This document shows positions 28,754 to 43,919 of a stretch of DNA of 64,000 nucleotides, in pieces. A model generated the notes under the pieces. It did no database searches. It was not told where the DNA came from and was given only the letters and a program-made list of their open reading frames with translations. The DNA lies in the IMG/VR virus record IMGVR_UViG_3300046786_000331, positions 32,001-96,000 of that record, one strand, 5' to 3'. This DNA comes from a virus. The translations under genes and the position numbers were made by a program. Within the stretch, counting starts at the first letter, position 1. Every line of letters starts with the position of its first letter.

Positions 28754-28906
28754 ATGCAATCTACTAATAGACAAATTATTAATACGATAGCCAAACAGGT
28801 TGGACATATGTCCGCCGGCTGGTTAGCGATTAATAGTCTATGTTCAGATCGCACACCGGAGGGCTATTTTAGCTCAGGGTTCTTGGAGGGTAGTGGTTAC
28901 GCTTAA
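28754..28906 (+). CDS. putative attenuator leader peptide (50 aa, all 20 amino acids)
   Basis: between promoters and terminator; 3' codons form the antiterminator strand. Confidence 0.65.
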   Translation: MQSTNRQIINTIAKQVGHMSAGWLAINSLCSDRTPEGYFSSGFLEGSGYA

Positions 28907-28940
28907 TTAAGCAAACAGCTACTAAAACTTTAGGAACCCT
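28876..28940 (+). promoter_or_regulatory. antiterminator hairpin
   Basis: AGGGTTCTTGGAG (28876-88) pairs with CTTTAGGAACCCT (28928-40), 13 bp including G-U. Confidence 0.7.
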
Positions 28941-28969
28941 AGGATTAAAACCCTGGGGTTTTTTGTTTT
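28933..28969 (+). terminator. intrinsic terminator (attenuator)
   Basis: GGAACCCTAGG-loop-CCTGGGGTTTT then TTGTTTT. Confidence 0.85.
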
Positions 28970-28982
28970 CTGGAAAGGGTAA

Positions 28983-29141
28983 ATGGATACAGAGACAAAA
29001 AAACTAAAGGAAGCTGAATGGTTTCGACAGCACGAATTGAACGATGATCAGTTAGAAAGACTAATTGAAAACAAGTTTATTAGAGCTCGTCAATATCATG
29101 AAGCGTTCTTAGCGAAAGAAAGGCAAGAAGAAATTGCCTAA
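28983..29141 (+). CDS. small charged protein (52 aa), first gene after attenuator
   Basis: manual translation MDTETKKLKEAEWF...EEIA; purine-rich RBS. Confidence 0.6.
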   Translation: MDTETKKLKEAEWFRQHELNDDQLERLIENKFIRARQYHEAFLAKERQEEIA

Positions 29142-29149
29142 TGGTAGAA

Positions 29150-29254
29150 TAGTGTGAATAAGTGGAAACGAGGTCCACGCTCCGCACTCAAAACATGGAG
29201 CAAACGGGCGGACTAGTGGATGGCTTATCTTCTTGTAGATAAAAAAATACTAGT
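29150..29254 (+). ncRNA. structured RNA, possible pseudoknot
   Basis: GTGGA/TCCAC and GCTCC/GGAGC hairpins; loop GCACT complementary to upstream AGTGT. Confidence 0.4.
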
Positions 29255-29327
29255 TATTAAAGCAAATTGGTACCCGCTACTTTTGACGTAGAACGCGGCT
29301 GCATAGCAGGACAGTTTGTTTTAATAA
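29254..29327 (+). ncRNA. long-stem element E1
   Basis: 16-bp terminal stem; CTGC-ATA-GCAG hairpin. Confidence 0.5.
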
Positions 29328-29380
29328 ACACTTTCCACTTCACGCCTGAACAGCGGACGACATCATAGAGGGAAAGTGTT
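29327..29380 (+). ncRNA. long-stem element E2
   Basis: AACACTTTCC/GGAAAGTGTT stem. Confidence 0.4.
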
Positions 29381-29389
29381 AACAACTAT

Positions 29390-29474
29390 GGAGTCGTAGG
29401 AAAATTGGTAACCCCAGTGGACTGTAAATCCGCCGCCTCTGGCACTGCTGGTTCAACTCCAGCCGGCTCCACCA
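29390..29474 (+). tRNA. tRNA-Tyr(GTA)
   Basis: cloverleaf, long V arm, CCA. Confidence 0.93.
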
Positions 29475-29477
29475 TAG

Positions 29478-29506
29478 TTGACTTTTTACAAGTTCGGTGT
29501 TATACT
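29478..29506 (+). promoter_or_regulatory. internal sigma70 promoter
   Basis: TTGACT-N17-TATACT. Confidence 0.7.
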
Positions 29507-29537
29507 ACTAACACTTAGAAACTTTAGAAAGTCTAAA

Positions 29538-29732
29538 ATGCAAACACATCGAGTTTATGTTGAAGTTGGTTACTATGCAGGTGGAGGTACCGATGGTGCT
29601 TTCATTACTGAAAGTCTTAATCAATTTGAAACAACTGTAAATGCAAATACTTCAGGTGACGCTGTTCGTATTGCACAAGCACAGTTCGGTGGACAAACAC
29701 GTTGTCGCGTAACATATCGCGGCACAATTTAA
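29538..29732 (+). CDS. hypothetical protein
   Basis: ORF after internal promoter. Confidence 0.6.
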   Translation: MQTHRVYVEVGYYAGGGTDGAFITESLNQFETTVNANTSGDAVRIAQAQFGGQTRCRVTYRGTI

Positions 29733-29734
29733 TT

Positions 29735-29810
29735 GCTTCGTTAGCTCAATTGGGAGAGCGCGACACTGTCACTGTCGAGGTAAGGGGATCGAAACCCCTA
29801 CGAGGCGCCA
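29735..29810 (+). tRNA. tRNA-Asp(GTC)
   Basis: cloverleaf, CCA. Confidence 0.92.
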
Positions 29811-29815
29811 AACAT

Positions 29816-29892
29816 GGGTCGTTAGTTCCAATTGGCAGAACGTTGGTCTCCAAAACCAAATGTTGGGCGTTCGAATCGCTCACGGCCCGCCA
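29816..29892 (+). tRNA. tRNA-Trp(CCA), U11-A24 D stem
   Basis: cloverleaf, loop CTCCAAA. Confidence 0.92.
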
Positions 29893-29898
29893 ACTTAT

Positions 29899-29973
29899 GC
29901 ACGGTTCGTCTATCGGTCAGGACATTAGGTTTTCATCCTAAGAAGAGGGGTTCGATTCCCCTACCGTGTTCCA
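29899..29973 (+). tRNA. tRNA-Glu(TTC)
   Basis: cloverleaf, CCA. Confidence 0.9.
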
Positions 29974-29978
29974 GTTAT

Positions 29979-30056
29979 GCACAGGTGGCAGAGTGGCCCA
30001 ATGCAACGGATTGCAAATCCGTAAAGCCGTGAGTTCGAATCTCACCCTGTGCTCCA
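29979..30056 (+). tRNA. tRNA-Cys(GCA)
   Basis: cloverleaf, U73, CCA. Confidence 0.92.
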
Positions 30057-30057
30057 A

Positions 30058-30155
30058 GTTAGATCTGGCAGGGGTAAACCTACATAGTATGGTTGACGGG
30101 ATGGAAGGTCCCTTAGCGAACTACACGCACCACACGCCCTGCGGAATGTAGTAAC
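30058..30155 (+). ncRNA. multi-hairpin RNA with C-AUA-G triloop
   Basis: GCAGGG/CCCTGC closing stem; AACCTAC-ATA-GTATGGTT. Confidence 0.4.
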
Positions 30156-30162
30156 AATTTAT

Positions 30163-30239
30163 ACCCCAGTGACGCAACTGGTAGACGTGCTTCTCTCAAA
30201 AGGAAGATGCTGAAGGTTCAAATCCTTCCTGGGGTACCA
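30163..30239 (+). tRNA. tRNA-Leu(CAA), short variable loop
   Basis: loop CTCAAAA, 5-nt V loop, CCA. Confidence 0.85.
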
Positions 30240-30244
30240 ATAAT

Positions 30245-30336
30245 GGAAAGTAATGCAGCTGGGATGGTCCGGCGACTAGCCTTGAAAACTAGGTTCTCAG
30301 AAATGGGATGGGGTTCGACTCCTCTGCTTTCCGCCA
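30245..30336 (+). tRNA. tRNA-Ser(TGA)
   Basis: long V arm, G73, CCA. Confidence 0.9.
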
Positions 30337-30340
30337 AATT

Positions 30341-30415
30341 TGCCGTGTAGCTCAGAGGAAGAGCACTCGCTTGATAAGCGATAGGTCGACATTTCGAAAT
30401 TGTCCATGGCAACCA
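30341..30415 (+). tRNA. tRNA-Ile(GAT)
   Basis: cloverleaf, CCA. Confidence 0.88.
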
Positions 30416-30419
30416 AGTT

Positions 30420-30633
30420 TTGTTAAAGTGTCAGCAAGAGAATGTCACGCTATAAAGGTTTCTTCGAAGGACTGATATAGTTAAAGGGGACGGGTTCAAC
30501 TCCCGGCTGCTCGGAAGAGCGGTGCAGATTGGTTGCTAACTGGACTAGTATCCCAAGTGACGTACCGAGTCCTAGCCGGCTTTATATACATAGGTGAATG
30601 GTTGCTATAACGATGGGGCAACATCTTTAACAA
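30420..30633 (+). ncRNA. ~210-nt structured RNA
   Basis: TTGTTAAAG/CTTTAACAA closing stem, internal T-arm-like GGGTTCAACTCCC. Confidence 0.45.
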
Positions 30634-30642
30634 ATTTAATTT

Positions 30643-30715
30643 CTGGGTGTAGGATAATGGTAGTCGACGAAGCTTGGATCTTCGAGGCGCAGGTTCGATT
30701 CCTGCCACCCAGACC
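30643..30715 (+). tRNA. tRNA-Pro(TGG)
   Basis: cloverleaf, CCA. Confidence 0.88.
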
Positions 30716-30919
30716 ATTTATGTCATAGTGTAATGAGAATGCACGGGATCGCCATTATAAAATCCTTCGGGTGATGGAACAAGGTTCAGGTACGGTAAGA
30801 ACCCGTAACGACAAAATTTTCTGCAGAAAGAACAGAGACACGGTGGTCCTAAAGGTGTGGGGACTATAAAAGCCGACAAACGTCTGGGGTACAACTCCAT
30901 ACGCACCGACAAATTCTAT

Positions 30920-30998
30920 TCCGTGAAATCCAAGCATGGTGCAAGGACCTGACTGTTAATCAGTGATTAGGTGAGTTCGATCCTCACACACGGAGCCA
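30920..30998 (+). tRNA. tRNA-Asn(GTT)
   Basis: loop CTGTTAA, G73, CCA. Confidence 0.85.
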
Positions 30999-31093
30999 TT
31001 AATAAAGCTCATCAGAACTTCTGTGGGCATCCGCTTCCTCACATAGTGCAGGAGGCGCAACGGTTCGATTCCGCTGATGTGTTTTATTAATGG
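30996..31093 (+). ncRNA. long-stem element E3
   Basis: 20-nt inverted arms, CAC-ATA-GTG hairpin, T-arm CGGTTCGATTCCG. Confidence 0.6.
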
Positions 31094-31166
31094 GGGGAGC
31101 CGAGGGCGGCGGCGTTGCTTTGCAAGCATCGTGACTACAAGGGTTCGATACCCTGGTCCTCCACCA
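31093..31166 (+). tRNA. atypical tRNA-Ala(TGC), 4-nt D loop
   Basis: G3-U70, loop TTTGCAA, CCA. Confidence 0.7.
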
Positions 31167-31171
31167 AGAAT

Positions 31172-31248
31172 GTCTGGGTCTGACATGGTGTTTCTGAAGA
31201 GGTTGATCACTCTGAGGAGAATGTGGTTCGATACCACGCCCGGCGCCA
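31172..31248 (+). ncRNA. tRNA-like RNA with extended anticodon arm
   Basis: T arm GTGG-TTCGATA-CCAC, CCA end, arm with tandem GA/GA. Confidence 0.55.
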
Positions 31249-31250
31249 AC

Positions 31251-31394
31251 TTTCGAAGATAGACGTACTGCTTGAGTCCCAAGTAACTGGCGCTACGAGC
31301 GCATTGGTTTGACAGTGAAGTATGGTTTGTTTAAACTCGCGGCTACGAGACAATCCAGTGAGTCCTCCCAGGAGGATAGTTGGGCACTTCGAAA
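31251..31394 (+). ncRNA. ~145-nt structured RNA
   Basis: TTTCGAAG/CTTCGAAA closing stem, nested helices. Confidence 0.45.
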
Positions 31395-31402
31395 ACCTAT
31401 AT

Positions 31403-31477
31403 ACTCCGGTAGTTTACTGGCTAGAACGCTGCCCTTTCAAGGCGGAGAAGAGGGATCGATACCCTTTCGGAGTACCA
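31403..31477 (+). tRNA. tRNA-Glu(TTC), second copy
   Basis: cloverleaf, CCA. Confidence 0.88.
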
Positions 31478-31503
31478 CAATTTTTAGTTCAAAGGAGAAC
31501 GAT

Positions 31504-31524
31504 ATGAAACGTGCTAAACGTTAG
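31504..31524 (+). other. minigene MKRAKR* with strong SD and downstream hairpin
   Basis: AAGGAG-N6-ATG; hairpin 31524-31563. Confidence 0.5.
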
Positions 31525-31590
31525 TGTCGCTTCTAGATCCCCCGTATGGTCTAGTTGTGACACGTTAATAAACAATTAATACGAACACAA

Positions 31591-31664
31591 CCTTCGCAAA
31601 CATTAAGGTGATGTAACTGGCTCTTAACCAGTAAAACTAGGATCGTTACCTAGGCGGAGGACCA
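31591..31664 (+). tRNA. tRNA-Lys(CTT)
   Basis: loop CTCTTAA; atypical T loop; CCA. Confidence 0.82.
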
Positions 31665-31667
31665 TAT

Positions 31668-31741
31668 GGGGGTGAAACTTTAAGGTGAAGTAACTGGCTT
31701 TTAACCAGTAAAACTCGGATCGTTCCCGAGCACCCCTACCA
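31668..31741 (+). tRNA. tRNA-Lys(TTT)
   Basis: loop CTTTTAA; atypical T loop; CCA. Confidence 0.82.
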
Positions 31742-31830
31742 TATGCAAACACATTCGAAGACCTATACATAGTATTAGGAAACGGATAGGCACGCCGGAG
31801 GACCTGGGCCTGAGTGTGTTTACATATGGT
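31738..31830 (+). ncRNA. long-stem element E4
   Basis: ACCATATGCAAACACATTC/GAGTGTGTTTACATATGGT; TAC-ATA-GTA hairpin. Confidence 0.6.
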
Positions 31831-31879
31831 TAATGTTATCTGCAGGTAACATCCATATTGGGGCGTAATTAACCTCAAG

Positions 31880-31950
31880 AACTCGTAGTCGTCTAATGGT
31901 AGGATACGTGCGTAGCGTGATGGTTGTTCGAATCGACCCTACAATGAGTT
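31880..31950 (+). pseudogene. degenerate tRNA-like element
   Basis: D and T arms recognisable, shrunken anticodon arm, no CCA. Confidence 0.45.
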
Positions 31951-32036
31951 TGCAACAAACAAGTCGGCATGTGTGTCCACCGTGCATTAACCGACGATAA
32001 ACAAAGCTAGGGCAAGCGCCAGTTAACGGTGGAGCT

Positions 32037-32161
32037 CATATAAAAACACACTAGTGCATTATAGTGAATCAGGTCGCTCCTGTGGAAGCTATCCATGTAT
32101 CAATTGCCCTGGTGGGAAAGGTCGACGAGTGCGGTTCGATTCCGTAGTGTGTTTTTATATG
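32037..32161 (+). ncRNA. long-stem element E5
   Basis: perfect 17-bp CATATAAAAACACACTA/TAGTGTGTTTTTATATG; T arm adjacent to 3' arm. Confidence 0.65.
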
Positions 32162-32235
32162 GTGATGTAGTTCAGTGGTAGAACACCTCCTTCATACGGA
32201 GACTGTCGGCGGTTCAAGTCCGTCCATCACTACCA
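32161..32235 (+). tRNA. tRNA-Met(CAT) elongator (Ile2 not excluded)
   Basis: cloverleaf, CCA. Confidence 0.85.
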
Positions 32236-32242
32236 GATTTGT

Positions 32243-32316
32243 TGGTCTATGGTGTAATGGTAACACAACAGACTTTGACTCTGTCGTTCCAGGTTCGAGC
32301 CCTGGTAGGCCTGCCA
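32243..32316 (+). tRNA. tRNA-Gln(TTG)
   Basis: cloverleaf, CCA. Confidence 0.92.
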
Positions 32317-32325
32317 ACAAACAAT

Positions 32326-32417
32326 GCCAGCGAGACTTGGTAGTCAGAGAGTCCTTATAAGACTTTTAGCGCCAGATTAGCGTTCTTGAGTGGGTTCGAT
32401 TCCCACCGCTGGTACCA
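32326..32417 (+). tRNA. atypical tRNA with TAT anticodon (Ile AUA), long variable region
   Basis: loop CTTATAA, 4-nt D loop, T arm, CCA. Confidence 0.7.
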
Positions 32418-32421
32418 ATAT

Positions 32422-32496
32422 CGGTCCTTAGTTCAATGGATAGAATGCCATGCTTCGAACTTGGAGATGTGGGTTCGATTCCTGCAGGACCGGCCA
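32422..32496 (+). tRNA. tRNA-Arg(TCG)
   Basis: cloverleaf, CCA. Confidence 0.9.
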
Positions 32497-32503
32497 AAGA
32501 TAT

Positions 32504-32578
32504 GCGCCCGTCGTATAGTGGAGAATACACGATCCTACGAAGTTCGGAACGGTGGTTCGATTCCATCCGGGCGCACCA
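32504..32578 (+). tRNA. tRNA-Arg(ACG)
   Basis: cloverleaf, CCA. Confidence 0.92.
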
Positions 32579-32583
32579 ACAAT

Positions 32584-32657
32584 GTTGTTCCTAGTGTAGT
32601 GGCTGCACACCTGTCTGTGAAACAGGTAGAGAGGGTTCGATTCCCCGGTTCAACCCA
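32584..32657 (+). tRNA. tRNA-His(GTG)
   Basis: G-1/C73, two acceptor mismatches, CCA. Confidence 0.82.
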
Positions 32658-32667
32658 AGGAAATATT

Positions 32668-33087
32668 ATGGAACAAATGAAAACATACAATACACTAAAA
32701 GGTTCCGTGAAAACATTCGAAGAACTCTTAGGCCGTACATTGTACAAAGTAACAGCAGATGGCGAAGAATTAACTTTGTATCTATCCGAAACAAACTATG
32801 TAAGATTTTATCACAGCCAAGACTGTTGCGAACATGTGTATATCGAAGATATCTGCGGTGACTTACAAGACTTAGTCGGAGCACCCCTGTTAATAGCAGA
32901 AGAAGTATCAGACGAGTTATACGAAGCAGAACATACACCAGATTATTCCGAATCATACACATGGACATTCTATAAGTTTGCTACCCGAAAAGGATATGTA
33001 GACGTTCGGTGGTTTGGTAGTTCAAATGGTTATTATTCTGAAAGTGTAAGTGTTGATTTTGTTGACACCACCTTAGAAGAAGATTAG
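32668..33087 (+). CDS. conserved phage hypothetical protein
   Basis: HSQDCCEHVYIEDI...TWTFYKFAT...SNGYYSE; SD AAGGA. Confidence 0.85.
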   Translation: MEQMKTYNTLKGSVKTFEELLGRTLYKVTADGEELTLYLSETNYVRFYHSQDCCEHVYIEDICGDLQDLVGAPLLIAEEVSDELYEAEHTPDYSESYTWTFYKFATRKGYVDVRWFGSSNGYYSESVSVDFVDTTLEED

Positions 33088-33161
33088 GATGATTATTTCA
33101 GTGGTAGAATAACTCCTCGACACGGAGTAGGTCGCAAGTTCGAACCTTGCATCATCCACCA
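33087..33161 (+). tRNA. tRNA-Val(GAC), C33
   Basis: loop TCGACAC, CCA. Confidence 0.82.
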
Positions 33162-33162
33162 T

Positions 33163-33254
33163 ATATGTAAACACACTAGTAAAAGAACGAACATAGTATC
33201 TTAGGGCCTAGCCTGCGGCATTGTCGGATGACGGTGGCTAGTGTGTTTTCATAT
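33163..33254 (+). ncRNA. long-stem element E6
   Basis: ATATGTAAACACACTAG/CTAGTGTGTTTTCATAT. Confidence 0.6.
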
Positions 33255-33256
33255 GT

Positions 33257-33332
33257 GCCGCGGTAGCTCATCAGGTAGAGCAGCAGACTGAAAATCTGTG
33301 TGTGGCTGGTTCGAGTCCAGCTCGTGGCACCA
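33257..33332 (+). tRNA. tRNA-Phe(GAA)
   Basis: cloverleaf, CCA. Confidence 0.93.
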
Positions 33333-33335
33333 TAT

Positions 33336-33419
33336 GCGACTGTGGTGTAATTGGTAGCCACAGCAGACTTAAAATCTGCCGCCTTGTGCGTACCGGTTCG
33401 AGTCCGGTCAGTCGCACCA
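33336..33419 (+). tRNA. tRNA-Leu(TAA)
   Basis: long V arm, CCA. Confidence 0.93.
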
Positions 33420-33450
33420 AATATATTTTCACATTGTTAACCAAAATATG

Positions 33451-33522
33451 TTGACAGGTGATAAATTAGAACATATACTATATAGATGCTGTTAACAAAA
33501 CAGTGTAAATGTTCTTTAAAAA
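33451..33522 (+). promoter_or_regulatory. sigma70 promoter followed by boxA-like site
   Basis: TTGACA-N17-TATACT; TGTTCTTTAAAA at ~33510. Confidence 0.7.
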
Positions 33523-33539
33523 TTCGTAAAGGTATTTTT

Positions 33540-33623
33540 GCCCCGGTGGTGTAATGGTAGCCACGCTGGTCTTAGAAGCCAGTGGAGAGATCCGTGTCGG
33601 TTCGAGTCCGACCTGGGGCACCA
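33540..33623 (+). tRNA. tRNA-Leu(TAG)
   Basis: long V arm, CCA. Confidence 0.93.
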
Positions 33624-33727
33624 TATCAAAGTACATAAATGCGTAGGCCACGCAGATGTAGCGGATTACAGCTTTGCCCTGTGCAGAGTAGACAGGTTCA
33701 ATTCCTGTGAATGTACTTTGATATGGT
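33620..33727 (+). ncRNA. long-stem element E7 (cloverleaf-like interior)
   Basis: perfect 17-bp stem; three hairpins plus T arm ACAGG-TTCAATT-CCTGT. Confidence 0.65.
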
Positions 33728-33740
33728 TTAAAAAATTAAA

Positions 33741-34627
33741 GGGTAGTTTATTATCCTGTAGTGTATGGTTCGCCCAGCATTACGAAGAATAAGTGAGGTG
33801 ACTCACCCAAAGCTAGAATGCCTACATACTAGCGCCAGCAATGGTTCATGTAAACAAGCCTGCTCACTGTCGCGAGGCAGCGTTCACTGATAAGACCGGT
33901 GGATGTAACAGCAAAGCTGATGTATGGGGAAGAATGTGTATCGACTGGCCCGCAAGGGAACCAGGGTGCATGAAAAGTAACAGGTGGTGCTGACTTCCAT
34001 ACAAAACCAATCAGTCAGTTGGTATGAGAAAGGGTAGTGTATTGGTTCGAAGGGTCGCACCTAAGAGCTCGTATGCAATGTAAATGGTTAGTGGGTTGTA
34101 GCAATACAGCACATCGATCGTGAAACATCACTGAGTAGCTCGCGAGGCAAAAGGTATGTGGTGAGTTGTATTTCGTATTCCAAAAGATTATGAAGCAACT
34201 GAGGCAGCTCATCGCGGTAGGTTCAATGTAGATCAATGGTAGATCGTCTGTCTTTTAAACAGAATGCTGTGGGTTCAAATCCCATCATTAACAAAAATGC
34301 AAAGACTGCCTCGGTTATGTGTGAAAAGTATCTAATACTTGACACGCAAGTGAATCAAGTCTAATGAAGCTCGCAAGGTAACATTAGTTTATACTGGAAG
34401 TTTCGTAAGTGGTTAGCGCCGCTGAATAGCTCGCAAGGTTAACGGGATAGATGGTGTAGAATAGCACATAACGACAAGCCTACTGCCTGGCTTTAAAAAC
34501 GGCGATGCTGTAAGCAGACTAGGATACCGCAAGGGTCTTAGTGGATGTCTAGAGAACGTATGCTCGCAAGGTGTACGGTAATGCTAGAGGTGCTTATGGC
34601 TTAAGGTGTAATCTCAACCTTAGGCAC
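33741..34627 (+). ncRNA. probable GOLLD-type large ncRNA with embedded tRNA-Lys-like element
   Basis: ~890 nt with no credible ORF, many GCAA/GNRA hairpins, within phage tRNA array. Confidence 0.6.
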
Positions 34628-34728
34628 TATTATAAAACACATTGGGTTGTTGGTCTTACTTCGATAGTAAGGACAGCGGTGACTGAAGTACAAGGTCGAT
34701 ACGTTGCTACAGTGTGTTTCATAATAGT
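34626..34728 (+). ncRNA. long-stem element E8
   Basis: ACTATTATAAAACACATTG/CAGTGTGTTTCATAATAGT. Confidence 0.6.
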
Positions 34729-34732
34729 TTGT

Positions 34733-34807
34733 GCCTGGATAGCTCAGGGGGAGAGCGTCTGCTTTACACGCAGAGGGTCCGCGGTTCGAAACCGTGTCCA
34801 GGTACCA
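34733..34807 (+). tRNA. tRNA-Val(TAC)
   Basis: cloverleaf, CCA. Confidence 0.93.
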
Positions 34808-34813
34808 AATATT

Positions 34814-34901
34814 GGAGCATTGGCCGACCGGTTAAGGCAACAGATTGCTAATCTGTCATTCAGCAATGGGTGAGTAGGTTCGATTCCTACATGCTCCGCC
34901 A
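34814..34901 (+). tRNA. tRNA-Ser(GCT)
   Basis: long V arm, CCA. Confidence 0.93.
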
Positions 34902-34923
34902 GATACAAAAAGGAAAACTAAAA

Positions 34924-35109
34924 ATGATGAAACCAGGCAAAACATTTAAACTCAGCAAGCCTACTAAAACTATGCTTGCATTAGGCGGCTTCCGCAATCA
35001 GGAAGATCGTAATCGTTGGAAACGTGCAATGATTGATGCAGAACTTTGCAGTGCTGTACAGCCAAAGCGTGAAAAGCGTCCAAGCGGTCCACAAGGAAAT
35101 ACCCAGTAA
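34924..35109 (+). CDS. small basic hypothetical protein
   Basis: SD AAGGA; MMKPGKTFKLSK. Confidence 0.7.
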   Translation: MMKPGKTFKLSKPTKTMLALGGFRNQEDRNRWKRAMIDAELCSAVQPKREKRPSGPQGNTQ

Positions 35110-35369
35110 TGGTAGCCCGTAACGATATTACCGGCGATGTTATCCAAACAAAGGGTGCATCTTCTTCTTATCGTGATAACTACGATAACATTTTTAGGAA
35201 AGATAAAATGCAAGTTAGAGTACAAGAAAACGAGTCAGAAATTGGCAAGTGTGGTTGTGGTCGCAGTCCAACTGGAAAATGTATCGGGTGGCATGGTCTA
35301 ACCGAAGCCGACTTTCAATCTAAGTTAGCCAACTTTATGGCTGAAGAACAATTGAAAGAAGATAAGTAA
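35109..35369 (+). CDS. small protein with CDGSH-like Fe-S motif
   Basis: CGCGRSPTGKCIGWH. Confidence 0.6.
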   Translation: MVARNDITGDVIQTKGASSSYRDNYDNIFRKDKMQVRVQENESEIGKCGCGRSPTGKCIGWHGLTEADFQSKLANFMAEEQLKEDK

Positions 35370-35375
35370 AACACT

Positions 35376-35451
35376 GGGGGTATAGCTCATCTGGTAGAGC
35401 AGGTGCTTTGCAAGCATCAGGTGGCAGGTTCGAGTCCTGTTGCCTCCACCA
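35376..35451 (+). tRNA. tRNA-Ala(TGC)
   Basis: canonical, G3-U70, CCA. Confidence 0.94.
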
Positions 35452-35503
35452 AGCACTCTCCATGACACACGGAGTATAATGTGATAAGTTGTGTGTTAAC
35501 TTT

Positions 35504-35577
35504 GCCCTTATAGTTAAATGGTATAACGACGGTTTTGTAATCCGTAATTTGCAGTTCGATTCTGTGTAGGGGCACCA
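35504..35577 (+). tRNA. tRNA-Thr(TGT)
   Basis: cloverleaf, CCA. Confidence 0.92.
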
Positions 35578-35586
35578 AAGAATTAT

Positions 35587-35662
35587 TCCCTAGTAGCTCA
35601 GCGGTAGAAGCACCTGACTGTTAATCAGGGTGTCGGTGGTTCGATCCCACCCTGGGGAGCCA
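35587..35662 (+). tRNA. tRNA-Asn(GTT), second copy
   Basis: cloverleaf, CCA. Confidence 0.93.
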
Positions 35663-35694
35663 GTTTTGCTAGTTTCTTAAAACTAGCCAGTGAA

Positions 35695-35898
35695 GTGAAA
35701 GGTAGATGAGGATAGACAAAACCATTTGGCTTCATGCTAAATGAACAATACTCCAGACACCCTTGAAAAGTGTTCGTGTTGTTGTGCTCCGGCCCTAAAG
35801 ATTTTGTTATTTGATTTCCGGAAATATAATGGCCTCTGTGGATTGCTTTTTGAACATTGTAATTTGCACATTGTCCGGTCTATTACTTGACCTTTCAT
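35695..35898 (+). ncRNA. ~200-nt structured non-coding element
   Basis: TGAAAGGT...ATAGAC pairs with GTCTAT...ACCTTTCA. Confidence 0.4.
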
Positions 35899-35942
35899 GG
35901 ATCTGTTGTTATAATAGTTTATACAAACACAAAGGACATAAC

Positions 35943-36188
35943 GTGGCTAGATATACATCAGAAGCAGCAGTAGAAGCAATTGGAAACAGATTTAACCTAG
36001 TGCTAGCCGCTAGTCAACGAACCCGTGAACTTAAACGAGGTCATGCACAACTTGTAGACGGTAAAGACGCAAGTTTTAACGTTACAGCTTTGCGTGAAAT
36101 CGAAGCAGGCAAATATACAATGAAAGACTACTTGGATTCGATTCCAAGAAAACAAAAAGGACGTAGAAATGAATTTGACATTACGTAA
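35943..36188 (+). CDS. rpoZ: RNA polymerase omega subunit-like
   Basis: MARYTSEAAVEAIGNRFNLVLAASQRTREL...VTALREIEAG; SD AAGGA; TTGACC-17-TATAAT upstream. Confidence 0.88.
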   Translation: MARYTSEAAVEAIGNRFNLVLAASQRTRELKRGHAQLVDGKDASFNVTALREIEAGKYTMKDYLDSIPRKQKGRRNEFDIT

Positions 36189-36744
36189 GGCAAACGCTAT
36201 CCAGAATAGCATCAACGAGGCAATCAAAGGCATCGAGATTAAGACAACTGTAGAACTAAACGAGTTCCAAGCAGTTGAGGCAGAGTTGCAAAAAGCAAAC
36301 ACAACATTGTTTGCAAATGACGCTCGCCGTCAAAAGCTGTTGTTGGCTTTGTATAACATTCGCGGGCTAGTTGGCACTGCGAACGCTAGTGCAGGTATTG
36401 ACCTGAGCCTAGCAAAGGCAGCGTTTATTGATAAACGCATTGCACAGCTCGACGAGCTAGCAAAGGCAGAAGTTATCACTGATCTTGCAGTGATTACGGG
36501 TAAGCTAGACAAGATTAAAAATGACAAGAGTGAAACTGCTCGTAGTCGTATCTACGGATACAATGACACAGTTTCAACTAGTGTTGTAAGTGCTGAGCAA
36601 TCAGCATCGATTAAGAATGAGATTAAAAATCTCAAGAAGCAAAAACAAAAACTCAATGACGAAGTTCTTGAGTTAAACATCAAGACAGAGATTCCTTTGT
36701 CAGATGATGTAGTGGCAACACTAACAGCTGAAGGCTTAATCTAA
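36169..36744 (+). CDS. conserved coiled-coil hypothetical protein
   Basis: helical, strongly biased codons. Confidence 0.8.
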   Translation: MNLTLRKANAIQNSINEAIKGIEIKTTVELNEFQAVEAELQKANTTLFANDARRQKLLLALYNIRGLVGTANASAGIDLSLAKAAFIDKRIAQLDELAKAEVITDLAVITGKLDKIKNDKSETARSRIYGYNDTVSTSVVSAEQSASIKNEIKNLKKQKQKLNDEVLELNIKTEIPLSDDVVATLTAEGLI

Positions 36745-36940
36745 CAGACCCCGGGTTCCGAGCAACCGTTATTGCTCGGGGTTATTGAATAGACCAAACT
36801 ATTCACTGTGCGTAGGATCTACAGCAAGGCCTGTTCGGCGACTTGAGAATATCCTAGGTAGACGAATAGTCCAACCAAAAGGGACAACGTGGACGGAGTA
36901 AACGCCCAGTTTAGGGCTCCTGTGGTGGGAGTGGCTAAAC

Positions 36941-37058
36941 ACTTTATTAGAATACATTAGGAGTTTGTCTGGAATCCAGTATCAAGCAATTGATATCCAG
37001 AACGGAGTAACGTGGGCAAGATGGATTTTGCTACGCCGACAGTGTATTCTAATAAAGT
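36941..37058 (+). ncRNA. long-stem element E9
   Basis: ACTTTATTAGAATACAT/GTGTATTCTAATAAAGT. Confidence 0.55.
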
Positions 37059-37069
37059 TAAATAGTTGT

Positions 37070-37633
37070 ATGTCGACAGATAGATTTTACAAACAAACTA
37101 CAATTCCTGCTCCTAGTGTAGATTACAAAACAATATGGAATGTAGATCCTAAAGATCCTGCTGACACAAATCCAAGATGGTTAACTTATCCTAAGGATAG
37201 TAAAATCTGGAATGACGACATATTAAATAGATTAAAAACTGTTGGACTAAAACCGAGACTTATAAGAGTCTTTAGATGGAAACCCAACAGTGTGTTTCCT
37301 TGGCATATCGACGGTTCAGTAAATGAAATTACTGAATTTGCAATTAATTGGGTATATGAAGGCAGTGGAATTATTCAGTGGAATTCAAGTTTAGAATTAC
37401 CTAAACCTGCTGAAAAAAATTACCATCTTGCTTACGGGTCTTTTAATGGTAAAGCCGAAGATAAATTTGAAGCAGAAGCATTAGGACATGGATGTGTAGT
37501 TAACACTACTATTCCACACAGAGTTTTGAATTTAAGTGACGTTCATAGAATTACTGTTTCAATACAGTTTGGAAATGAATTCACTTATAGTGAAACTGTA
37601 GAGAAATTAAAATCCTGCGGTTTCATAGAATAA
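37070..37633 (+). CDS. cupin/2OG-Fe(II) oxygenase-like protein
   Basis: WHIDG...PHRV...RITVSI (HxD...H). Confidence 0.75.
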   Translation: MSTDRFYKQTTIPAPSVDYKTIWNVDPKDPADTNPRWLTYPKDSKIWNDDILNRLKTVGLKPRLIRVFRWKPNSVFPWHIDGSVNEITEFAINWVYEGSGIIQWNSSLELPKPAEKNYHLAYGSFNGKAEDKFEAEALGHGCVVNTTIPHRVLNLSDVHRITVSIQFGNEFTYSETVEKLKSCGFIE

Positions 37634-37638
37634 GTTAT

Positions 37639-37712
37639 AGCGGGTAGGGCGGCCACCACTCCAGTCTCATAAGCTCGGAGCATCCCAGGTTCAAATCCTG
37701 GACCCGCATCCA
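37639..37712 (+). tRNA. atypical initiator-like tRNA-Met(CAT)
   Basis: 1-72 mismatch, reduced D arm, extended anticodon stem, CCA. Confidence 0.65.
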
Positions 37713-37717
37713 TATAT

Positions 37718-37794
<77 letters not shown>

Positions 37795-37810
37795 TCAACA
37801 TAAAGGCAAT

Positions 37811-37993
37811 ATGACTAAAGAAGAAGAAAAAGCAGCAACAGATTTAGCACTTGAAGAATTCTTTGCAAAAGGCGGCGTGGTTCAAAAATTAAAACCTAAT
37901 CAAAGTGGAAGAGTAGAAGGTGCAGGTTATTCACCTTGGTCTAAGAAACCCTCTACTAGTCCGTTAGCAAATCCTCCTGAAGACGAAGAATAA
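37811..37993 (+). CDS. small protein, possible SutA-like RNAP-binding motif
   Basis: ALEEFFAKGGVVQKL. Confidence 0.55.
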   Translation: MTKEEEKAATDLALEEFFAKGGVVQKLKPNQSGRVEGAGYSPWSKKPSTSPLANPPEDEE

Positions 37994-38068
37994 CTTGCTG
38001 TAGTTCAATGGATAGAACGGCTCTCTCCTAAAGAGTAGATCCAGGTTCGATTCCTGGTGGCAGGACCA
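37994..38068 (+). tRNA. tRNA-Arg(CCT)
   Basis: loop CTCCTAA, CCA. Confidence 0.9.
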
Positions 38069-38082
38069 GCTATAAATATGTT

Positions 38083-38916
38083 ATGGAATTTTCTTCTCTA
38101 GCATACGCAAAAATAAATCTTGAATTTGATCGAGAAATATTCATTCAAGAATATGATGCACATATCCTTCCGCACACTCGTCAACTGATGAACGGCGAAG
38201 GCGGTATGTTAGCAACTAAAGAATTAAATAAAATTTGGAACATGGTTCCTGAAGAAGAATACAGCACTGCTGATTCTTGGGAACAGCCAGGAGATGTTAC
38301 AACATTCAAAGCTATCATTAAAGGTCGTCAAATGTGGGATTTTGTACAAATCCTAACACTAAAAACTACCGATGGTGATCATCCTTTAATTAAACGTATG
38401 GCTGAAAAGGGTAGCGTAGGTTTACGCAATGAAACACTTGGCCGTGAATACTTTATTAAAGAACAATTTAAAGATTTAAAAATAGTTAAATGGATTTACG
38501 ATAGTTTACCATTAACTATGATTAACAGTATACAATGTGTATCTTTGCCACCGAACTCTTTCTCTACAATTCATAGAGATGGCAAAGGATTGATATCTGA
38601 AAATTTCAGTGGCGGAGTAAACAAAGTTTACAAGTCTGGTTTTGTTGTTATTAACATAAACATAACAGACGGTGGTGTTCCGTTATATTGGGCACCGGAT
38701 CATGCTCCTAGAGCTTGCGAAAAAGCAAACGATCCTGTATACTTAACTAACGATTATTTGTTACATGGTGTTCCAATTTGTACATCAAGACGTAGACAAA
38801 TAAGAGTTACTGGAATTCCAACACAGGAATTAGAGAGTTTGATAGATAAAGATACAATTTTTGATCTAGGCGAAAATTATAAATTTGCCGAGTTAAAGGA
38901 TCATTATAAATATTAA
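38083..38916 (+). CDS. oxygenase-like protein (HxD...H), paralogue of 39663-40487
   Basis: IHRD...NDYLLHGVP...RRRQIRV. Confidence 0.75.
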   Translation: MEFSSLAYAKINLEFDREIFIQEYDAHILPHTRQLMNGEGGMLATKELNKIWNMVPEEEYSTADSWEQPGDVTTFKAIIKGRQMWDFVQILTLKTTDGDHPLIKRMAEKGSVGLRNETLGREYFIKEQFKDLKIVKWIYDSLPLTMINSIQCVSLPPNSFSTIHRDGKGLISENFSGGVNKVYKSGFVVININITDGGVPLYWAPDHAPRACEKANDPVYLTNDYLLHGVPICTSRRRQIRVTGIPTQELESLIDKDTIFDLGENYKFAELKDHYKY

Positions 38917-38919
38917 CAT

Positions 38920-38993
38920 GCGGGGTTCGTATAGTGGTAATACCTTAGCCTTCCAAGCTAATGCTGAGAGTTCGATTCTCTTACCCCGCTCCA
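38920..38993 (+). tRNA. tRNA-Gly(TCC)
   Basis: cloverleaf, CCA. Confidence 0.94.
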
Positions 38994-38997
38994 TTTT

Positions 38998-39573
38998 ATG
39001 CACACAGTAATAGACCAAAACGATATTTTTCGAAAGTTTAATTTTAGTTCCGTGATTACACCGGAAGATAATCAAGAAGCCATAGGCATTATAAAAAGTA
39101 TTATTGCCGACGGAAACTATTTTACTAATTCTCCAAAATATCAAACAAAAGAAAATATTTTTGCTAGACAGGAATCTGTATGGTTAAAGTATAGAATGAG
39201 TTTTTTGTTTAGTGTGTTTATGTACTTGGGTCGTGAAGTTAAGGTATCAAATATGATGGCCTGGAGTTTCATGACAAATCTCGAAGGTGCAGAAGATAGA
39301 GAAAAATTGTGGCATAATCATTGGCATCCACAAAATCCAAATAACAAAATGTTAAGCGGAATCTTTTATCTTCACATTCCAGAGAATGTACAAGACAGAG
39401 ATTATTGCGGAACAGAAATGGCTCCCAATGGTCCTACCGGTGACGGTAAATACTTCGTTAAACCAACTGATGGAAATTGGTTAGTTTATCCAAGTAATCA
39501 ATGGCATAGACCCGGCATTGTGCAAAGCAATGATTATAGGTTTATTTTAGCTGTTGATGTAGAATATCAATAA
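38998..39573 (+). CDS. putative 2OG-Fe(II) oxygenase
   Basis: WHNH, LSGIFYL, YPSNQWH, RFILA. Confidence 0.78.
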   Translation: MHTVIDQNDIFRKFNFSSVITPEDNQEAIGIIKSIIADGNYFTNSPKYQTKENIFARQESVWLKYRMSFLFSVFMYLGREVKVSNMMAWSFMTNLEGAEDREKLWHNHWHPQNPNNKMLSGIFYLHIPENVQDRDYCGTEMAPNGPTGDGKYFVKPTDGNWLVYPSNQWHRPGIVQSNDYRFILAVDVEYQ

Positions 39574-39574
39574 T

Positions 39575-39650
39575 GCGGGCGTAGCTCAGTTGGTAGAGCA
39601 TTACCTTGCCAAGGTAAATGTCGAGAGTTCGAACCTCTTCGCCCGCTCCA
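39575..39650 (+). tRNA. tRNA-Gly(GCC)
   Basis: cloverleaf, CCA. Confidence 0.95.
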
Positions 39651-39662
39651 ATAAATACCTTT

Positions 39663-40487: not shown

Positions 40488-40515
40488 ATAGTAGCACTTA
40501 AAGGAAACATATTAA

Positions 40516-43109: not shown

Positions 43110-43184
43110 CTGGCCATCGTATAATGGATAATACAACTCTCTTCTAAAGAGTGAATGTGGGTTCAATTCCTGCTGGCCGGACCA
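43110..43184 (+). tRNA. tRNA-Arg(TCT)
   Basis: loop CTTCTAA, CCA. Confidence 0.92.
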
Positions 43185-43189
43185 GACAT

Positions 43190-43263
43190 GCTCTCATAGT
43201 TAAATGGTAGAACGCCTCTTTGGTATGGAGGTGATGAAAGTTCGATTCTTTCTGAGAGCACCA
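43190..43263 (+). tRNA. tRNA-Thr(GGT)
   Basis: cloverleaf, CCA. Confidence 0.9.
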
Positions 43264-43298
43264 TTGACAAAGTAAATAAGAGAAAGTATAATAACAGA

Positions 43299-43909: not shown

Positions 43910-43919
43910 GGAGAACCAT

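What the first reader, a model, noticed from the sequence alone, without database searches (positions are those of the whole stretch)
29254..37058. Family of nine long-stem RNA elements interleaved with tRNAs
Seen: elements at 29254-327, 29327-380, 30996-31093, 31738-830, 32037-161, 33163-254, 33620-727, 34626-728 and 36941-37058. Each has 10-20-nt inverted arms with a shared core (left about AAAYACAY, right about RTGTRTTT, with compensatory changes between copies) around a different structured 35-90-nt interior. Three interiors end in a tRNA T-arm (GGTTCRATTCC) directly against the 3' arm, like a tRNA with an over-long acceptor stem and no CCA. Several contain a C-AUA-G triloop hairpin (clear in E1, E3, E4; weak in E2, E6; also at 30077-30094). 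In E3, E4 and E7 the stem begins by pairing the upstream tRNA's CCA with TGG. Inference: a conserved protein-recognised or RNase III-type stem that delivers variable small RNAs, for example tRNA-mimic decoys, processing signals or guide-like cargo. I do not recognise a named family.
Basis: partly seen in the sequence, partly recalled or inferred. Interest (0 to 1): 0.8.

Follow-up and report, generated by a model that had tools for sequence, protein, structure and literature searches.

The report
Stem-closed RNA spacer cassettes in phage
An uncultured giant lake phage fills several gaps of its tRNA gene array, both flanks of its GOLLD RNA and the removable segment of its split tmRNA gene with one apparently undescribed type of RNA hairpin, a conserved 20-base-pair stem around a highly variable folded interior, which most likely marks where the long transcript is cut.

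Summary
E1 and E3-E9 have 16-20 bp terminal helices; E2 is only a 10-12 bp hairpin. They share a core, AAACACAYU paired with RGUGUGUUU, which has a conserved U.G wobble. One position just outside the core is often unpaired.

The family is real. A core-only pattern scan of IMG/VR hit at least 119 loci. In 110 of the 154 matches the pairing continues 7 bp or more beyond the pattern. Elements lie on the tRNA strand and appear only in loci with tRNA arrays. No Rfam family matches them.

The main new fact is that a tenth copy lies 6 kb upstream of the window. It is exactly the intervening segment of the phage's circularly permuted (two-piece) tmRNA gene. That segment must be cut out to free the CCA end. 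Its interior is identical to that of a tRNA-array element in another phage. GOLLD RNA is bracketed by two elements in all three loci examined.

Best reading (about 0.6): these are excised spacer cassettes, and the helix marks the cut sites. RNase P would cut the 3' side and a host double-strand endonuclease such as RNase III would probably cut the helix; no cleavage was tested. Whether the very diverse interiors (76 types among 97) have a function is unknown.

Other agents of this scan noted the same family in other genomes.

The parts
29254..29327 (+). E1: variant member at the head of the tRNA array (core AAAGCAAAUUG / CAGUUUGUUUU), with a CUGCAUAGCAG hairpin inside. It sits 62 nt upstream of tRNA-Tyr.
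   Evidence: 16-nt arms, 88% complementary. Fold z-score -3.1. Model R1 gives 25.5 bits, E 0.005, although E1 was not in the training set. Positional counterparts lie about 67 nt upstream of tRNA-Tyr in L010 and L011, and similar ones in L003, L014 and L054.
29327..29380 (+). E2: short hairpin with a 10-12 bp stem. Not a supported member of the family.
   Evidence: Fold z-score -2.4. No R1 match at E <= 1.
30996..31093 (+). E3: 20-bp helix with variant core AAAGCUCAUCAG. The interior has an 11-bp hairpin capped by C-AUA-G, and a T-arm that abuts the 3' arm.
   Evidence: Same interior type in L033:3236-3335 and L051:1438-1536; 13 of 36 predicted pairs change on both sides and stay paired.
31738..31830 (+). 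E4: canonical member. The helix starts at the ACCA of tRNA-Lys(UUU). It has a C.A mismatch just outside the core, a U.G wobble in the core, and a CAUAG hairpin in the interior.
   Evidence: R1 gives 60.7 bits, but E4 was in the training set. The same interior type sits at another slot in L009:3008-3100.
32037..32161 (+). E5: 17-bp perfect helix ending on the first base of tRNA-Met(CAU). The 91-nt interior ends in a T-arm.
33160..33257 (+). E6: fills the gap between tRNA-Val(GAC) and tRNA-Phe, with a U.U mismatch just outside the core.
   Evidence: Counterpart L009:1296-1394 has a conserved interior. L011 has no element in this gap, only a 6-nt spacer.
33620..33727 (+). E7: the helix starts at the ACCA of tRNA-Leu(UAG). 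Variant core AAAGUACAU. The interior has four hairpins, the last a T-arm. It is the upstream bracket of GOLLD.
   Evidence: (z-score -6.5).
33728..34625 (+). GOLLD RNA with an embedded tRNA-Lys(UUU) at 34222-34293. It is the large RNA enclosed between E7 and E8.
   Evidence: Rfam RF02032 at 34158-34620, 214.9 bits against a gathering score of 150. tRNA by ARAGORN. The 5' limit is inferred from the end of E7.
34626..34728 (+). E8: canonical member with an A.C mismatch and a U.G wobble. It starts 6 nt after the GOLLD match ends and stops 4 nt before tRNA-Val(UAC).
   Evidence: The same arrangement occurs at L009:3010-3098 and L054:5728-5807.
36941..37058 (+). E9: 18-bp helix with variant core GAAUACAUU. 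It follows a conserved non-coding stretch.
   Evidence: (z-score -6.0). Counterparts L003:10234-10346 and L009:5169-5289 lie 3 nt before tRNA-Met. L010 and L011 have no element at this site.

Best explanation
The elements belong to a widespread family of RNA spacer cassettes, seen here almost only in phage contigs, that are closed by a stem and transcribed together with the tRNAs.

Each cassette fills the space between the 3' CCA end of one stable RNA and the 5' end of the next. The neighbouring RNA can be a tRNA, GOLLD, another small RNA, or the two halves of a permuted tmRNA. A helix of about 20 bp zips the 3' trailer of the upstream RNA to the 5' leader of the downstream RNA.

The helix has three parts: an AU-rich outer segment of about 8 bp that often includes the ACCA itself; one position that is often unpaired; and a conserved core, AAACACAYU / RGUGUGUUU, with a U.G wobble.

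Inferred mechanism: the cassette is cut out of the precursor. RNase P cuts its 3' side at the next RNA's 5' end. An endonuclease that recognises the helix frees the upstream CCA end, because a fully paired trailer offers no single-stranded entry for exonucleases or RNase E. A host RNase III-type enzyme is the most likely candidate.

Shown here: the family exists, the helix is under selection, and its position relative to RNA ends is fixed. Strongly inferred: it is excised when it sits in the tmRNA gene. Not shown: the enzyme, the exact cut sites, and whether the released hairpin with its interior does anything.
For: 1. The helix is under selection.
- In 44 elements collected without fixing the core, core positions 0-8 pair in 40-44 of 44. 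Position 7 is U.G in 30, U-A in 7, C-G in 6 and A-U in 1. Position -1 pairs in only 24 of 44.
- In 97 non-redundant elements, 92.3% of cells pair, against 78.5% in shuffles and 33-52% when the partner columns are slid. 17 of 20 pairs show changes on both sides.
- Median helix length is 20 bp.

2. The family is widespread and tied to tRNA arrays.
- In 110 of 154 matches the pairing extends 7 bp or more beyond the pattern.
- In the 80 loci fetched through a neighbouring protein rather than through the element, model R1 hits only loci with tRNA arrays, and the tRNA strand always scores higher.

3. Position relative to RNA ends (85 elements in loci with at least 3 tRNA genes).
- 42 helices start 2-6 nt inside the upstream tRNA's 3' end.
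- 42 end between -5 and +12 nt of the next tRNA's start.

4. The tmRNA link.
- R1 finds an untrained copy at G000:C1:25929-26016.
- It lies inside an ARAGORN permuted tmRNA at 25844-26269, confirmed by Rfam RF04321 (144 bits) and RF01850 (126 bits).
- It lies between the ACCA of the acceptor piece and the first G of the coding piece.
- The element lies inside a permuted tmRNA gene in at least eight other phage loci (L014/L015, L101, L112, L146, L159, L172, L186; L104 and L135 were called on opposite strands).
- By established knowledge, this segment is absent from mature two-piece tmRNA (PMC11915505).

5. GOLLD is bracketed by two elements in 3 of 3 loci.

6. The interiors behave as sense-strand RNA: CATAG in 14 and CTATG in 0; GGTTCRA in 13 and its reverse complement in 1. 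Hairpin stems show changes on both sides that keep the pairing.
Against:
- RNase III needs no such specific sequence, so the conserved core is not explained by what is known of that enzyme.
- No RNase III gene occurs in this record or in three complete 352-364 kb relatives, so a host enzyme has to be assumed.
- A processing signal needs no interior of 30-90 nt. Interiors that are conserved and move between contexts suggest the cassette has a use or a life of its own.
- Most tRNA junctions in the same arrays do without any element and have 3-10 nt spacers.
- The unpaired position sits elsewhere in the tmRNA versions: there it falls on the CCA.
Confidence: 0.6

Rival explanations
1. Cargo platform. 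The helix is a common excision and stabilising scaffold, and the interiors are the point: a fast-changing set of small phage RNAs released from tRNA-type transcripts. They could be tRNA mimics that soak up host tRNA-targeting defences or tRNA-binding enzymes, or other decoys or aptamers.
For: - Interiors fold and keep their hairpins through changes on both sides.
- Recurrent modules are enriched: the CAUAG hairpin in 19 of 49 against 3.3 expected, and T-arm words in 9-10 of 49 against about 2.
- The T-arm stacks directly on the helix, as in a tRNA minihelix, in 11 of 13 cases.
- The same interior occurs at different slots and in both the tmRNA segment and a tRNA array.
- Phage tmRNA genes carry a 90-110 nt element where the chromosomal tmRNA gene of one bacterium makes do with a 27-nt hairpin.
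- Some relatives have tandem runs of up to six elements.
Against: - There are 76 interior types among 97 elements, and 59 occur once. Counterparts at the same slot in related phages often have unrelated interiors. That fits weak constraint as well as it fits an arms race.
- No target, partner or complementarity was identified.
- The smallest interiors are only about 28 nt.
Confidence: 0.25
2. Selfish mobile DNA. These would be miniature inverted-repeat-type cassettes that spread by transposition or by recombination between co-infecting phages. They would survive only in spacers that RNA processing throws away, so their position at RNA ends reflects tolerance rather than function.
For: - Presence or absence differs between close relatives at the same slot: L011 lacks E6, and L010 lacks the E7/E8 and E9 elements.
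- A 48-nt identical interior occurs in two different contexts in two phages.
- Tandem runs occur.
- Copy number ranges from 2-3 in complete relatives to about 10 here.
Against: - No target-site duplication at filled versus empty sites.
- The outermost repeat ends are the most variable part and covary, whereas transposase-bound ends are usually the best conserved.
- Orientation is strictly with the tRNAs.
- No copy lies outside stable-RNA regions in 146 kb.
- No Y1 transposase or TnpB-type gene in the record, though the record is only 41% complete.
Confidence: 0.15
3. Y-RNA-like ribonucleoprotein scaffold. The long stem would bind a dedicated protein (Ro60/TROVE-like or another), and the variable or tRNA-like module would recruit partners, as in bacterial YrlA RNAs.
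For: The general shape is similar: a long terminal stem, a tRNA-like module, a size of about 100 nt, and a location beside phage tRNAs (PMC4201824). Some related contigs carry RNA-repair-type neighbours (phosphoesterases, and DUF2828 with DUF7788) near the arrays.
Against: - No Rfam Y RNA or YrlA match at E <= 1.
- The stem lacks the GNCGAAN(0-1)G motif described for YrlA.
- In YrlA the terminal stem takes the place of the anticodon stem, whereas here the T-arm abuts the terminal stem as in a tRNA acceptor arm (PMC4201824).
- No TROVE or DUF2828 gene in this record.
- No protein family is shared by more than 14 of 55 element-bearing loci.
Confidence: 0.05

Closest known systems
Intervening sequence of circularly permuted (two-piece) tmRNA genes (Rfam RF04321, RF01850, RF01849; PMC11915505)
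   Same: One copy in this genome, and copies in at least eight related phage loci, are exactly this segment. They lie between the ACCA of the acceptor piece and the 5' end of the coding piece, and extend the acceptor stem as a hairpin. By definition this segment is removed from the mature RNA by tRNA-processing enzymes.
   Different: - The Rfam models treat the segment as an unstructured loop. I found no description of a conserved helix core or of structured interiors in it; the two original papers are not in the library.
- The same cassette also occurs outside tmRNA genes: between tRNAs and on both sides of GOLLD.
- A bacterial chromosomal permuted tmRNA gene (Microvirga, L258) has only a 27-nt hairpin without the core.
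RNase III processing stems that flank stable RNAs (16S and 23S rRNA precursors, phage T7 early RNA sites) - from general knowledge
   Same: A long-range helix of about two turns, formed by the sequences on either side of an RNA, brackets what is released. Internal mismatches are common at the cut sites.
   Different: Cleavage is untested here. Known RNase III sites have no strongly conserved sequence like AAACACAYU. Here the helix encloses small variable RNAs and abuts tRNA ends.
Phage T4 species 1 and 2 stable RNAs (rnaC, rnaD) at the end of the T4 tRNA cluster
   Same: They are small stable RNAs of unknown function, processed from the tRNA transcript. rnaC has a T-arm next to a terminal stem. 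From memory, species 1 RNA is a classical RNase III substrate.
   Different: The T4 RNAs have a short terminal stem, lack the AAACACAYU core, and are single genes rather than a multi-copy family. No sequence similarity was seen.
Bacterial and phage Y RNAs (YrlA; PMC4201824)
   Same: A long stem plus a tRNA-like module, about 100 nt, sometimes next to phage tRNAs.
   Different: The stem motif differs, the topology of the tRNA-like part differs, no Ro60 gene is present, and there is no Rfam match.
HDV-like theta ribozymes downstream of phage tRNAs (PMC10879173)
   Same: A structured RNA directly downstream of a phage tRNA that is proposed to free the tRNA's 3' end.
   Different: There is no Rfam ribozyme match. 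The outermost helix includes the upstream CCA itself, which does not fit a fold that cleaves at its own 5' end (my inference). The interiors are too variable for one catalytic core.

Membership tests
Intervening sequence of a permuted (two-piece) tmRNA gene | Lies between the CCA of the upstream acceptor piece and the 5' end of the downstream coding piece of a permuted tmRNA gene | tested here: met
   Met for the copy at G000:C1:25929-26016 and for copies in at least eight other phage loci. Not met for the nine elements in the window, which lie between tRNAs, GOLLD and other RNAs. They share the cassette, not the gene context.
Intervening sequence of a permuted (two-piece) tmRNA gene | Absent from the mature RNA (excised) | not testable with these tools
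   No RNA data were available. Excision is inferred because the CCA end must be free for charging.
RNase III processing site | Double-stranded helix of about 20 bp or more | tested here: met
   Median 20 bp; 91 of 97 are 18-24 bp.
RNase III processing site | Staggered cleavage by RNase III in vivo or in vitro | not testable with these tools
   No cleavage data. No phage-encoded RNase III.
Y RNA / YrlA | Match to the family model; Ro60-binding stem motif; neighbouring Ro60 (TROVE) gene | tested here: not met
   No Rfam match at E <= 1. No TROVE gene in the record, which is 41% complete. The core differs from the GNCGAAN(0-1)G motif (PMC4201824).
tRNA | Cloverleaf with anticodon arm, 7-bp acceptor stem and 3' CCA or discriminator | tested here: not met
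   Not called by ARAGORN or by the Rfam tRNA models at E <= 1. Only a T-arm is present in E3, E5 and E7.
Miniature inverted-repeat transposable element | Target-site duplication; conserved outermost ends; both orientations; copies in unrelated intergenic sites; matching transposase | tested here: not met
   No duplication at filled versus empty sites. Outer ends are variable and covary. One orientation only. Confined to stable-RNA regions. No Y1 or TnpB gene. Presence or absence between relatives is met.
Self-cleaving ribozymes (HDV-like/theta, hammerhead, twister and others in Rfam) | Match to a ribozyme model with its conserved catalytic core | tested here: not met
   No such match at E <= 1 across 28800-44000.
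Stem-closed spacer cassette family (defined here, model R1) | Helix of 18-24 bp with core AAACACAYU / RGUGUGUUU or a variant that keeps the pairing, on the tRNA strand, between two stable-RNA ends | tested here: met
   E3-E9 score 44-61 bits but were used for training. E1 (25.5 bits) and the tmRNA copy (31.5 bits) were not used for training. E2 is not met.

The most novel reading that the evidence does not exclude
Phages of this group have a general 'plug-in' system for small RNAs. One universal excision helix would let any short structured RNA be inserted into, and released from, any tRNA-type transcript: tRNA arrays, the tmRNA spacer, the flanks of GOLLD. The hypervariable interiors, many of them partial tRNA mimics, would be an evolving set of effectors aimed at host tRNA-directed defences or the translation machinery. 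The same helix would also define the ends of GOLLD RNA.
Probability: 0.2. Interest if true: 0.85.

Novelty: new variant of a known kind. Interest (0 to 1): 0.62.

Why it matters
- It links three features of phage genomes that are poorly understood: large tRNA arrays, phage-borne two-piece tmRNA genes, and GOLLD RNA, whose function and end formation are unknown. One shared sequence module connects them.
- It offers a testable idea of how the ends of GOLLD, and of the odd tRNA-like RNAs in these arrays, are made.
- It shows that the 'discarded' tmRNA intervening segment can be a conserved, exchangeable RNA cassette.
- If the interiors turn out to be functional, the family would be a large, unexplored reservoir of small phage RNAs, with well over a hundred contigs already in hand.
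- The helix could also serve as a practical tool for releasing defined RNAs from polycistronic transcripts.

Tried and rejected
**Database and literature searches that found nothing**
- Rfam, at gathering scores and at E <= 1: no family covers the elements.
- Cultured-phage database: no nucleotide match for the region. Only tRNA matches for E7-GOLLD-E8.
- The nearest cultured relatives by protein, Melnitz and HTVC008M, were no help: Melnitz has only scattered tRNAs in the stretch examined.
- Literature searches found no description of the helix. The two original two-piece tmRNA papers are not in the library.

**Protein partners sought**
- Small ORFs inside the array give DUF7448, an RNA polymerase omega-like protein and a 2OG oxygenase. 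None is a nuclease or recombinase.
- Absent from the 146-kb record: TROVE, RNase III, RtcB, DUF2828, RNaseH-like PF04308, Y1 transposase and TnpB. The record is only 41% complete, so this is weak evidence.
- Clustering the ORFs of 55 element-bearing loci gave no family present in more than 14 of them.

**Strand and motif tests**
- Counting G.U against A.C pairs to tell the strands apart was not decisive. The helix has one of each on either strand.
- GGA (CsrA-type) motifs are not enriched in the interiors: 53 observed against about 60 expected.

**Searches of bacterial genomes**
- The scan of GTDB genomes gave 55 hits, about my rough chance estimate (~59; not a tool figure). After filtering for a helix, the real hits are tRNA-array contigs binned into freshwater genome bins, plus one second tmRNA gene in Microvirga whose surroundings are not clearly prophage.
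- A separate AACCACGAAACACACU hairpin in Verrucomicrobiota, and a GAUAUUUCAAAACACAUU hairpin in contigs that also carry C4 antisense RNA, share the core. I left both unassigned.
- R1 on 151 alphaproteobacterial genomes found nothing, but it also missed the known Microvirga copy. That search is therefore uninformative.

**RNA evidence**

Full report
**Setting**

The window is bases 32001-96000 of a 145,727-bp IMG/VR virus record with 39.7% G+C. CheckV rates the record 41% complete. Element-bearing contigs with complete genomes are 352-364 kb, and the nearest cultured relatives by one protein are Methylophilales phage Melnitz and Pelagibacter phage HTVC008M. The source is therefore probably a giant T4-like aquatic phage.

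ARAGORN finds 34 tRNA genes, all on the + strand, between 29390 and 43263. Rfam finds a GOLLD RNA at 34158-34620 (214.9 bits).

**The observation**

Eight of the nine elements (E1, E3-E9) have terminal inverted arms of 16-20 nt that are 88-100% complementary. They fold far better than shuffled sequence, with z-scores from -3.1 to -6.5.

A scan of the whole record shows that such long helices carrying the shared core occur only here. The core pattern AAACACAYU...RGUGUGUUU matches the window four times at three places (E4, E6 on both strands, E8), against 0.00 expected from shuffles.

E2 is only a 10-12 bp hairpin, and the family model does not find it.

T-arm motifs abut the 3' arm in E3, E5 and E7. 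For E4 and E7 the helix begins on the ACCA of the preceding tRNA.

**Anatomy of the helix**

I aligned 44 distinct elements from this and related phages on the core, without fixing the core sequence. The helix has four parts:
- An outer segment of about 8 bp, usually (A)CCAUAUN paired with NAUAUGG(U). Variants such as ACUAUUAU and ACUUUAUUAG keep the pairing.
- One position (-1) that pairs in only 24 of 44. The exceptions are mainly A.C (11), C.A (4) and C.U (3).
- A 9-bp core, AAACACAYU / RGUGUGUUU, paired in 40-44 of 44. Position 7 is U.G in 30, U-A in 7, C-G in 6 and A-U in 1.
- Two or three variable inner pairs.

On 97 non-redundant elements, 92.3% of cells pair. The figure is 78.5% in shuffles and 33-52% when the partner columns are slid. 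17 of 20 pairs show changes on both sides. Seventy of these 97 were collected with the core pattern, so the core's conservation in that set is partly built in. The outer and inner pairs were not fixed by the pattern (pairing there was selected for, pair identity was not). The helix has a median length of 20 bp.

**Conservation**

I fetched 80 IMG/VR loci through the DUF7448 protein encoded inside the array (window 32668-33084). Many of them contain tRNA arrays with the same elements at the same slots:
- upstream of tRNA-Tyr (E1);
- between tRNA-Lys(UUU) and tRNA-Met (E4, E5);
- between tRNA-Val(GAC) and tRNA-Phe (E6);
- between tRNA-Leu(UAG) and tRNA-Val(UAC) (E7, E8);
- before the tRNA-Met and tRNA-Pro pair (E9).

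In this set, which was not chosen for the element, model R1 hits only loci that have tRNA arrays, and the tRNA strand always scores higher.

In 110 of 154 matches the pairing continues 7 bp or more beyond the pattern. 72 of those 110 lie within 300 nt of a tRNA.

No Rfam family matches any element at E <= 1. The cultured-phage collection holds no nucleotide match.

**The tmRNA link**

R1 found one copy that was not in its training set, at G000:C1:25929-26016, 6 kb upstream of the window. ARAGORN calls a circularly permuted tmRNA at 25844-26269, with a tag ending in ALAA. Rfam confirms it with RF04321 (144 bits) and RF01850 (126 bits).

The element is exactly the intervening segment. It begins after the T-arm, 3' acceptor strand and ACCA of the acceptor piece. 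It ends at the 5' acceptor strand of the coding piece.

The element lies inside a permuted tmRNA gene in at least eight other phage loci as well. There the 'outer stem' is simply the tmRNA acceptor stem plus the CCA region.

The Rfam models treat this segment as an unstructured loop. The recent tmRNA database paper defines it only as sequence absent from the mature RNA, removed by tRNA-processing enzymes (PMC11915505).

The interior of this phage's tmRNA segment is identical over about 48 nt to the interior of an element that sits in a tRNA array of another phage (L084). The cassette has therefore moved between the two contexts.

One cultured bacterium, Microvirga pakistanensis, has a second permuted tmRNA gene whose intervening segment carries the same core. 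Its primary tmRNA gene has a plain 27-nt hairpin instead. The surroundings of the second gene are not clearly prophage.

**Relation to other RNAs**

Among 85 elements in loci with at least 3 tRNA genes, 42 helices begin 2-6 nt inside the 3' end of the upstream tRNA. 42 end between -5 and +12 nt of the next tRNA's start. 60 abut a called tRNA on at least one side.

The rest abut RNAs that are not canonical tRNAs. GOLLD is bracketed by two elements in all three loci where it occurs: the window, L009 and L054. In each, the downstream element begins 5-6 nt after the GOLLD match and ends 4-6 nt before a tRNA.

E4 and E5 bracket a 205-nt non-coding stretch. E3 lies between two tRNA-like genes that ARAGORN does not call.

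**Interiors**

The interiors are extremely diverse: 76 similarity clusters among 97 elements, of which 59 are singletons. Counterparts at the same slot often have unrelated interiors.

They are not random, however:
- CATAG, usually the loop of a hairpin, occurs in 19 of 49 against 3.3 expected. T-arm words occur in 9-10 of 49 against about 2.
- Orientation is fixed: CATAG in 14 and CTATG in 0; GGTTCRA in 13 and its reverse complement in 1.
- Where related interiors exist, their hairpins keep pairing through changes on both sides.
- Where a T-arm is present, it stacks directly on the helix in 11 of 13 cases.

**Gain and loss**

Close relatives differ by whole elements. L011 has a 6-nt spacer where E6 sits. 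L010 has a 10-nt spacer at the E7/E8 slot and no element at the E9 site.

No target-site duplication is visible at filled versus empty sites. No transposase, recombinase or nuclease gene was found in the array or in the record.

**Interpretation**

The facts fit a cassette that occupies the discarded space between one stable RNA's CCA end and the next RNA's 5' end, and that is cut out of the precursor.

In the tmRNA context excision is close to unavoidable, because the CCA end must be free. On the 3' side, RNase P cutting at the next RNA's 5' end is the obvious route.

On the 5' side the trailer is fully paired, which leaves no single-stranded entry for exonucleases or RNase E. A double-strand-specific endonuclease such as the host's RNase III is therefore the most economical guess. 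The weak AU-rich outer segment would fall apart after a cut near the unpaired position, leaving short tails for trimming. All of this paragraph is inference.

The phages encode no RNase III of their own. What is known of RNase III also does not explain why the core sequence is so conserved.

The size, structure and exchange of the interiors leave room for two other readings that do not exclude the first: the released hairpins are functional small RNAs, or the cassettes are selfish DNA that persists where RNA processing hides it.

A Y-RNA-like reading fails its membership tests.

**Relation to earlier notes**

After I reached the tmRNA link, a look-up showed that other agents of this scan had reported the same kind of stem-closed cassette in phage tRNA arrays and tmRNA spacers of other genomes. 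These are unchecked AI notes and not independent evidence, but they agree with what I tested here.

**Verdict**

The feature is real. It is a widespread family, apparently undescribed, best filed as a new variant of the known class of excised spacers and processing stems of stable-RNA precursors. Its function beyond excision is open.

Noticed in passing
G000:C1:25844-26269 (about 5.7-6.2 kb upstream of window position 1): The phage carries a circularly permuted, betaproteobacterial-type two-piece tmRNA gene (tag ANADTFDFSAMSFSGNTVGGRVALAA). This hints at a betaproteobacterial host.
   Followed up: yes
window 30245-30335, 30915-30998, 31094-31168, 31169-31251: Four tRNA-like genes with a T-arm and a 3' CCA that ARAGORN does not call. 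One scores 32 bits on the tRNA-Sec model and one has a GUU anticodon-like loop. They look like non-canonical tRNAs or tRNA mimics.
   Followed up: partly
window 31591-31664 and 31668-31741: Two adjacent tRNA-Lys genes (CUU, UUU) have an unusual T-loop, AUCGUUA and AUCGUUC, instead of UUCRANY. The UUU gene with an element directly after it recurs in all seven related arrays mapped; the CUU gene is called in three of them.
   Followed up: partly
window 31831-32036: A 205-nt non-coding stretch bracketed by E4 and E5 contains a tRNA-like piece with a D-arm-like part and a UUCGAAU T-loop. L003 has a 105-nt counterpart between two elements.
   Followed up: no
window 36745-36940: A non-coding stretch upstream of E9 is conserved in L003, L010 and L011 and ends in GGCAC or GGACAC, like a tRNA acceptor 3' end without CCA. 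It may be another undescribed small RNA.
   Followed up: no
window 35943-36185: The phage encodes an RNA polymerase omega (Rpb6/RpoZ-like) protein inside the tRNA array. A related protein is the most common neighbour in element-bearing loci (14 of 55).
   Followed up: partly
window 32326-32417: tRNA-Ile(UAU) with a long variable arm and a small D-arm scores only 33.8 bits, on the tRNA-Sec model. It is conserved in related arrays.
   Followed up: no
window 13784-15838 and 3828-5711: The phage encodes a CHASE2-adenylate/guanylate cyclase (46% identical to the Melnitz protein) and a full-length Hsp70/DnaK.
   Followed up: no
L041:13609-15033 and L201:13529-14019: Related phages have tandem runs of up to six (L041) or three (L201) stem-closed elements with no tRNA between them.
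   Followed up: partly
L206, L212, L213, L219, L221, L223, L230 (Verrucomicrobiota, Victivallales and Acidobacteriota genome bins): A different hairpin, AACCACGAAACACACU...RGUGUGUUUCGUGGUU, shares the same 9-nt core but has no tRNAs nearby. Its relation to the phage family is unknown.
   Followed up: no
L126, L137, L141, L160, L164 and similar contigs: A near-identical 87-nt hairpin (GAUAUUUCAAAACACAUU...) with the same core recurs in contigs without tRNA arrays. Two of them (L137, L141) also carry C4 antisense RNA. It has no match in cultured phages.
   Followed up: partly
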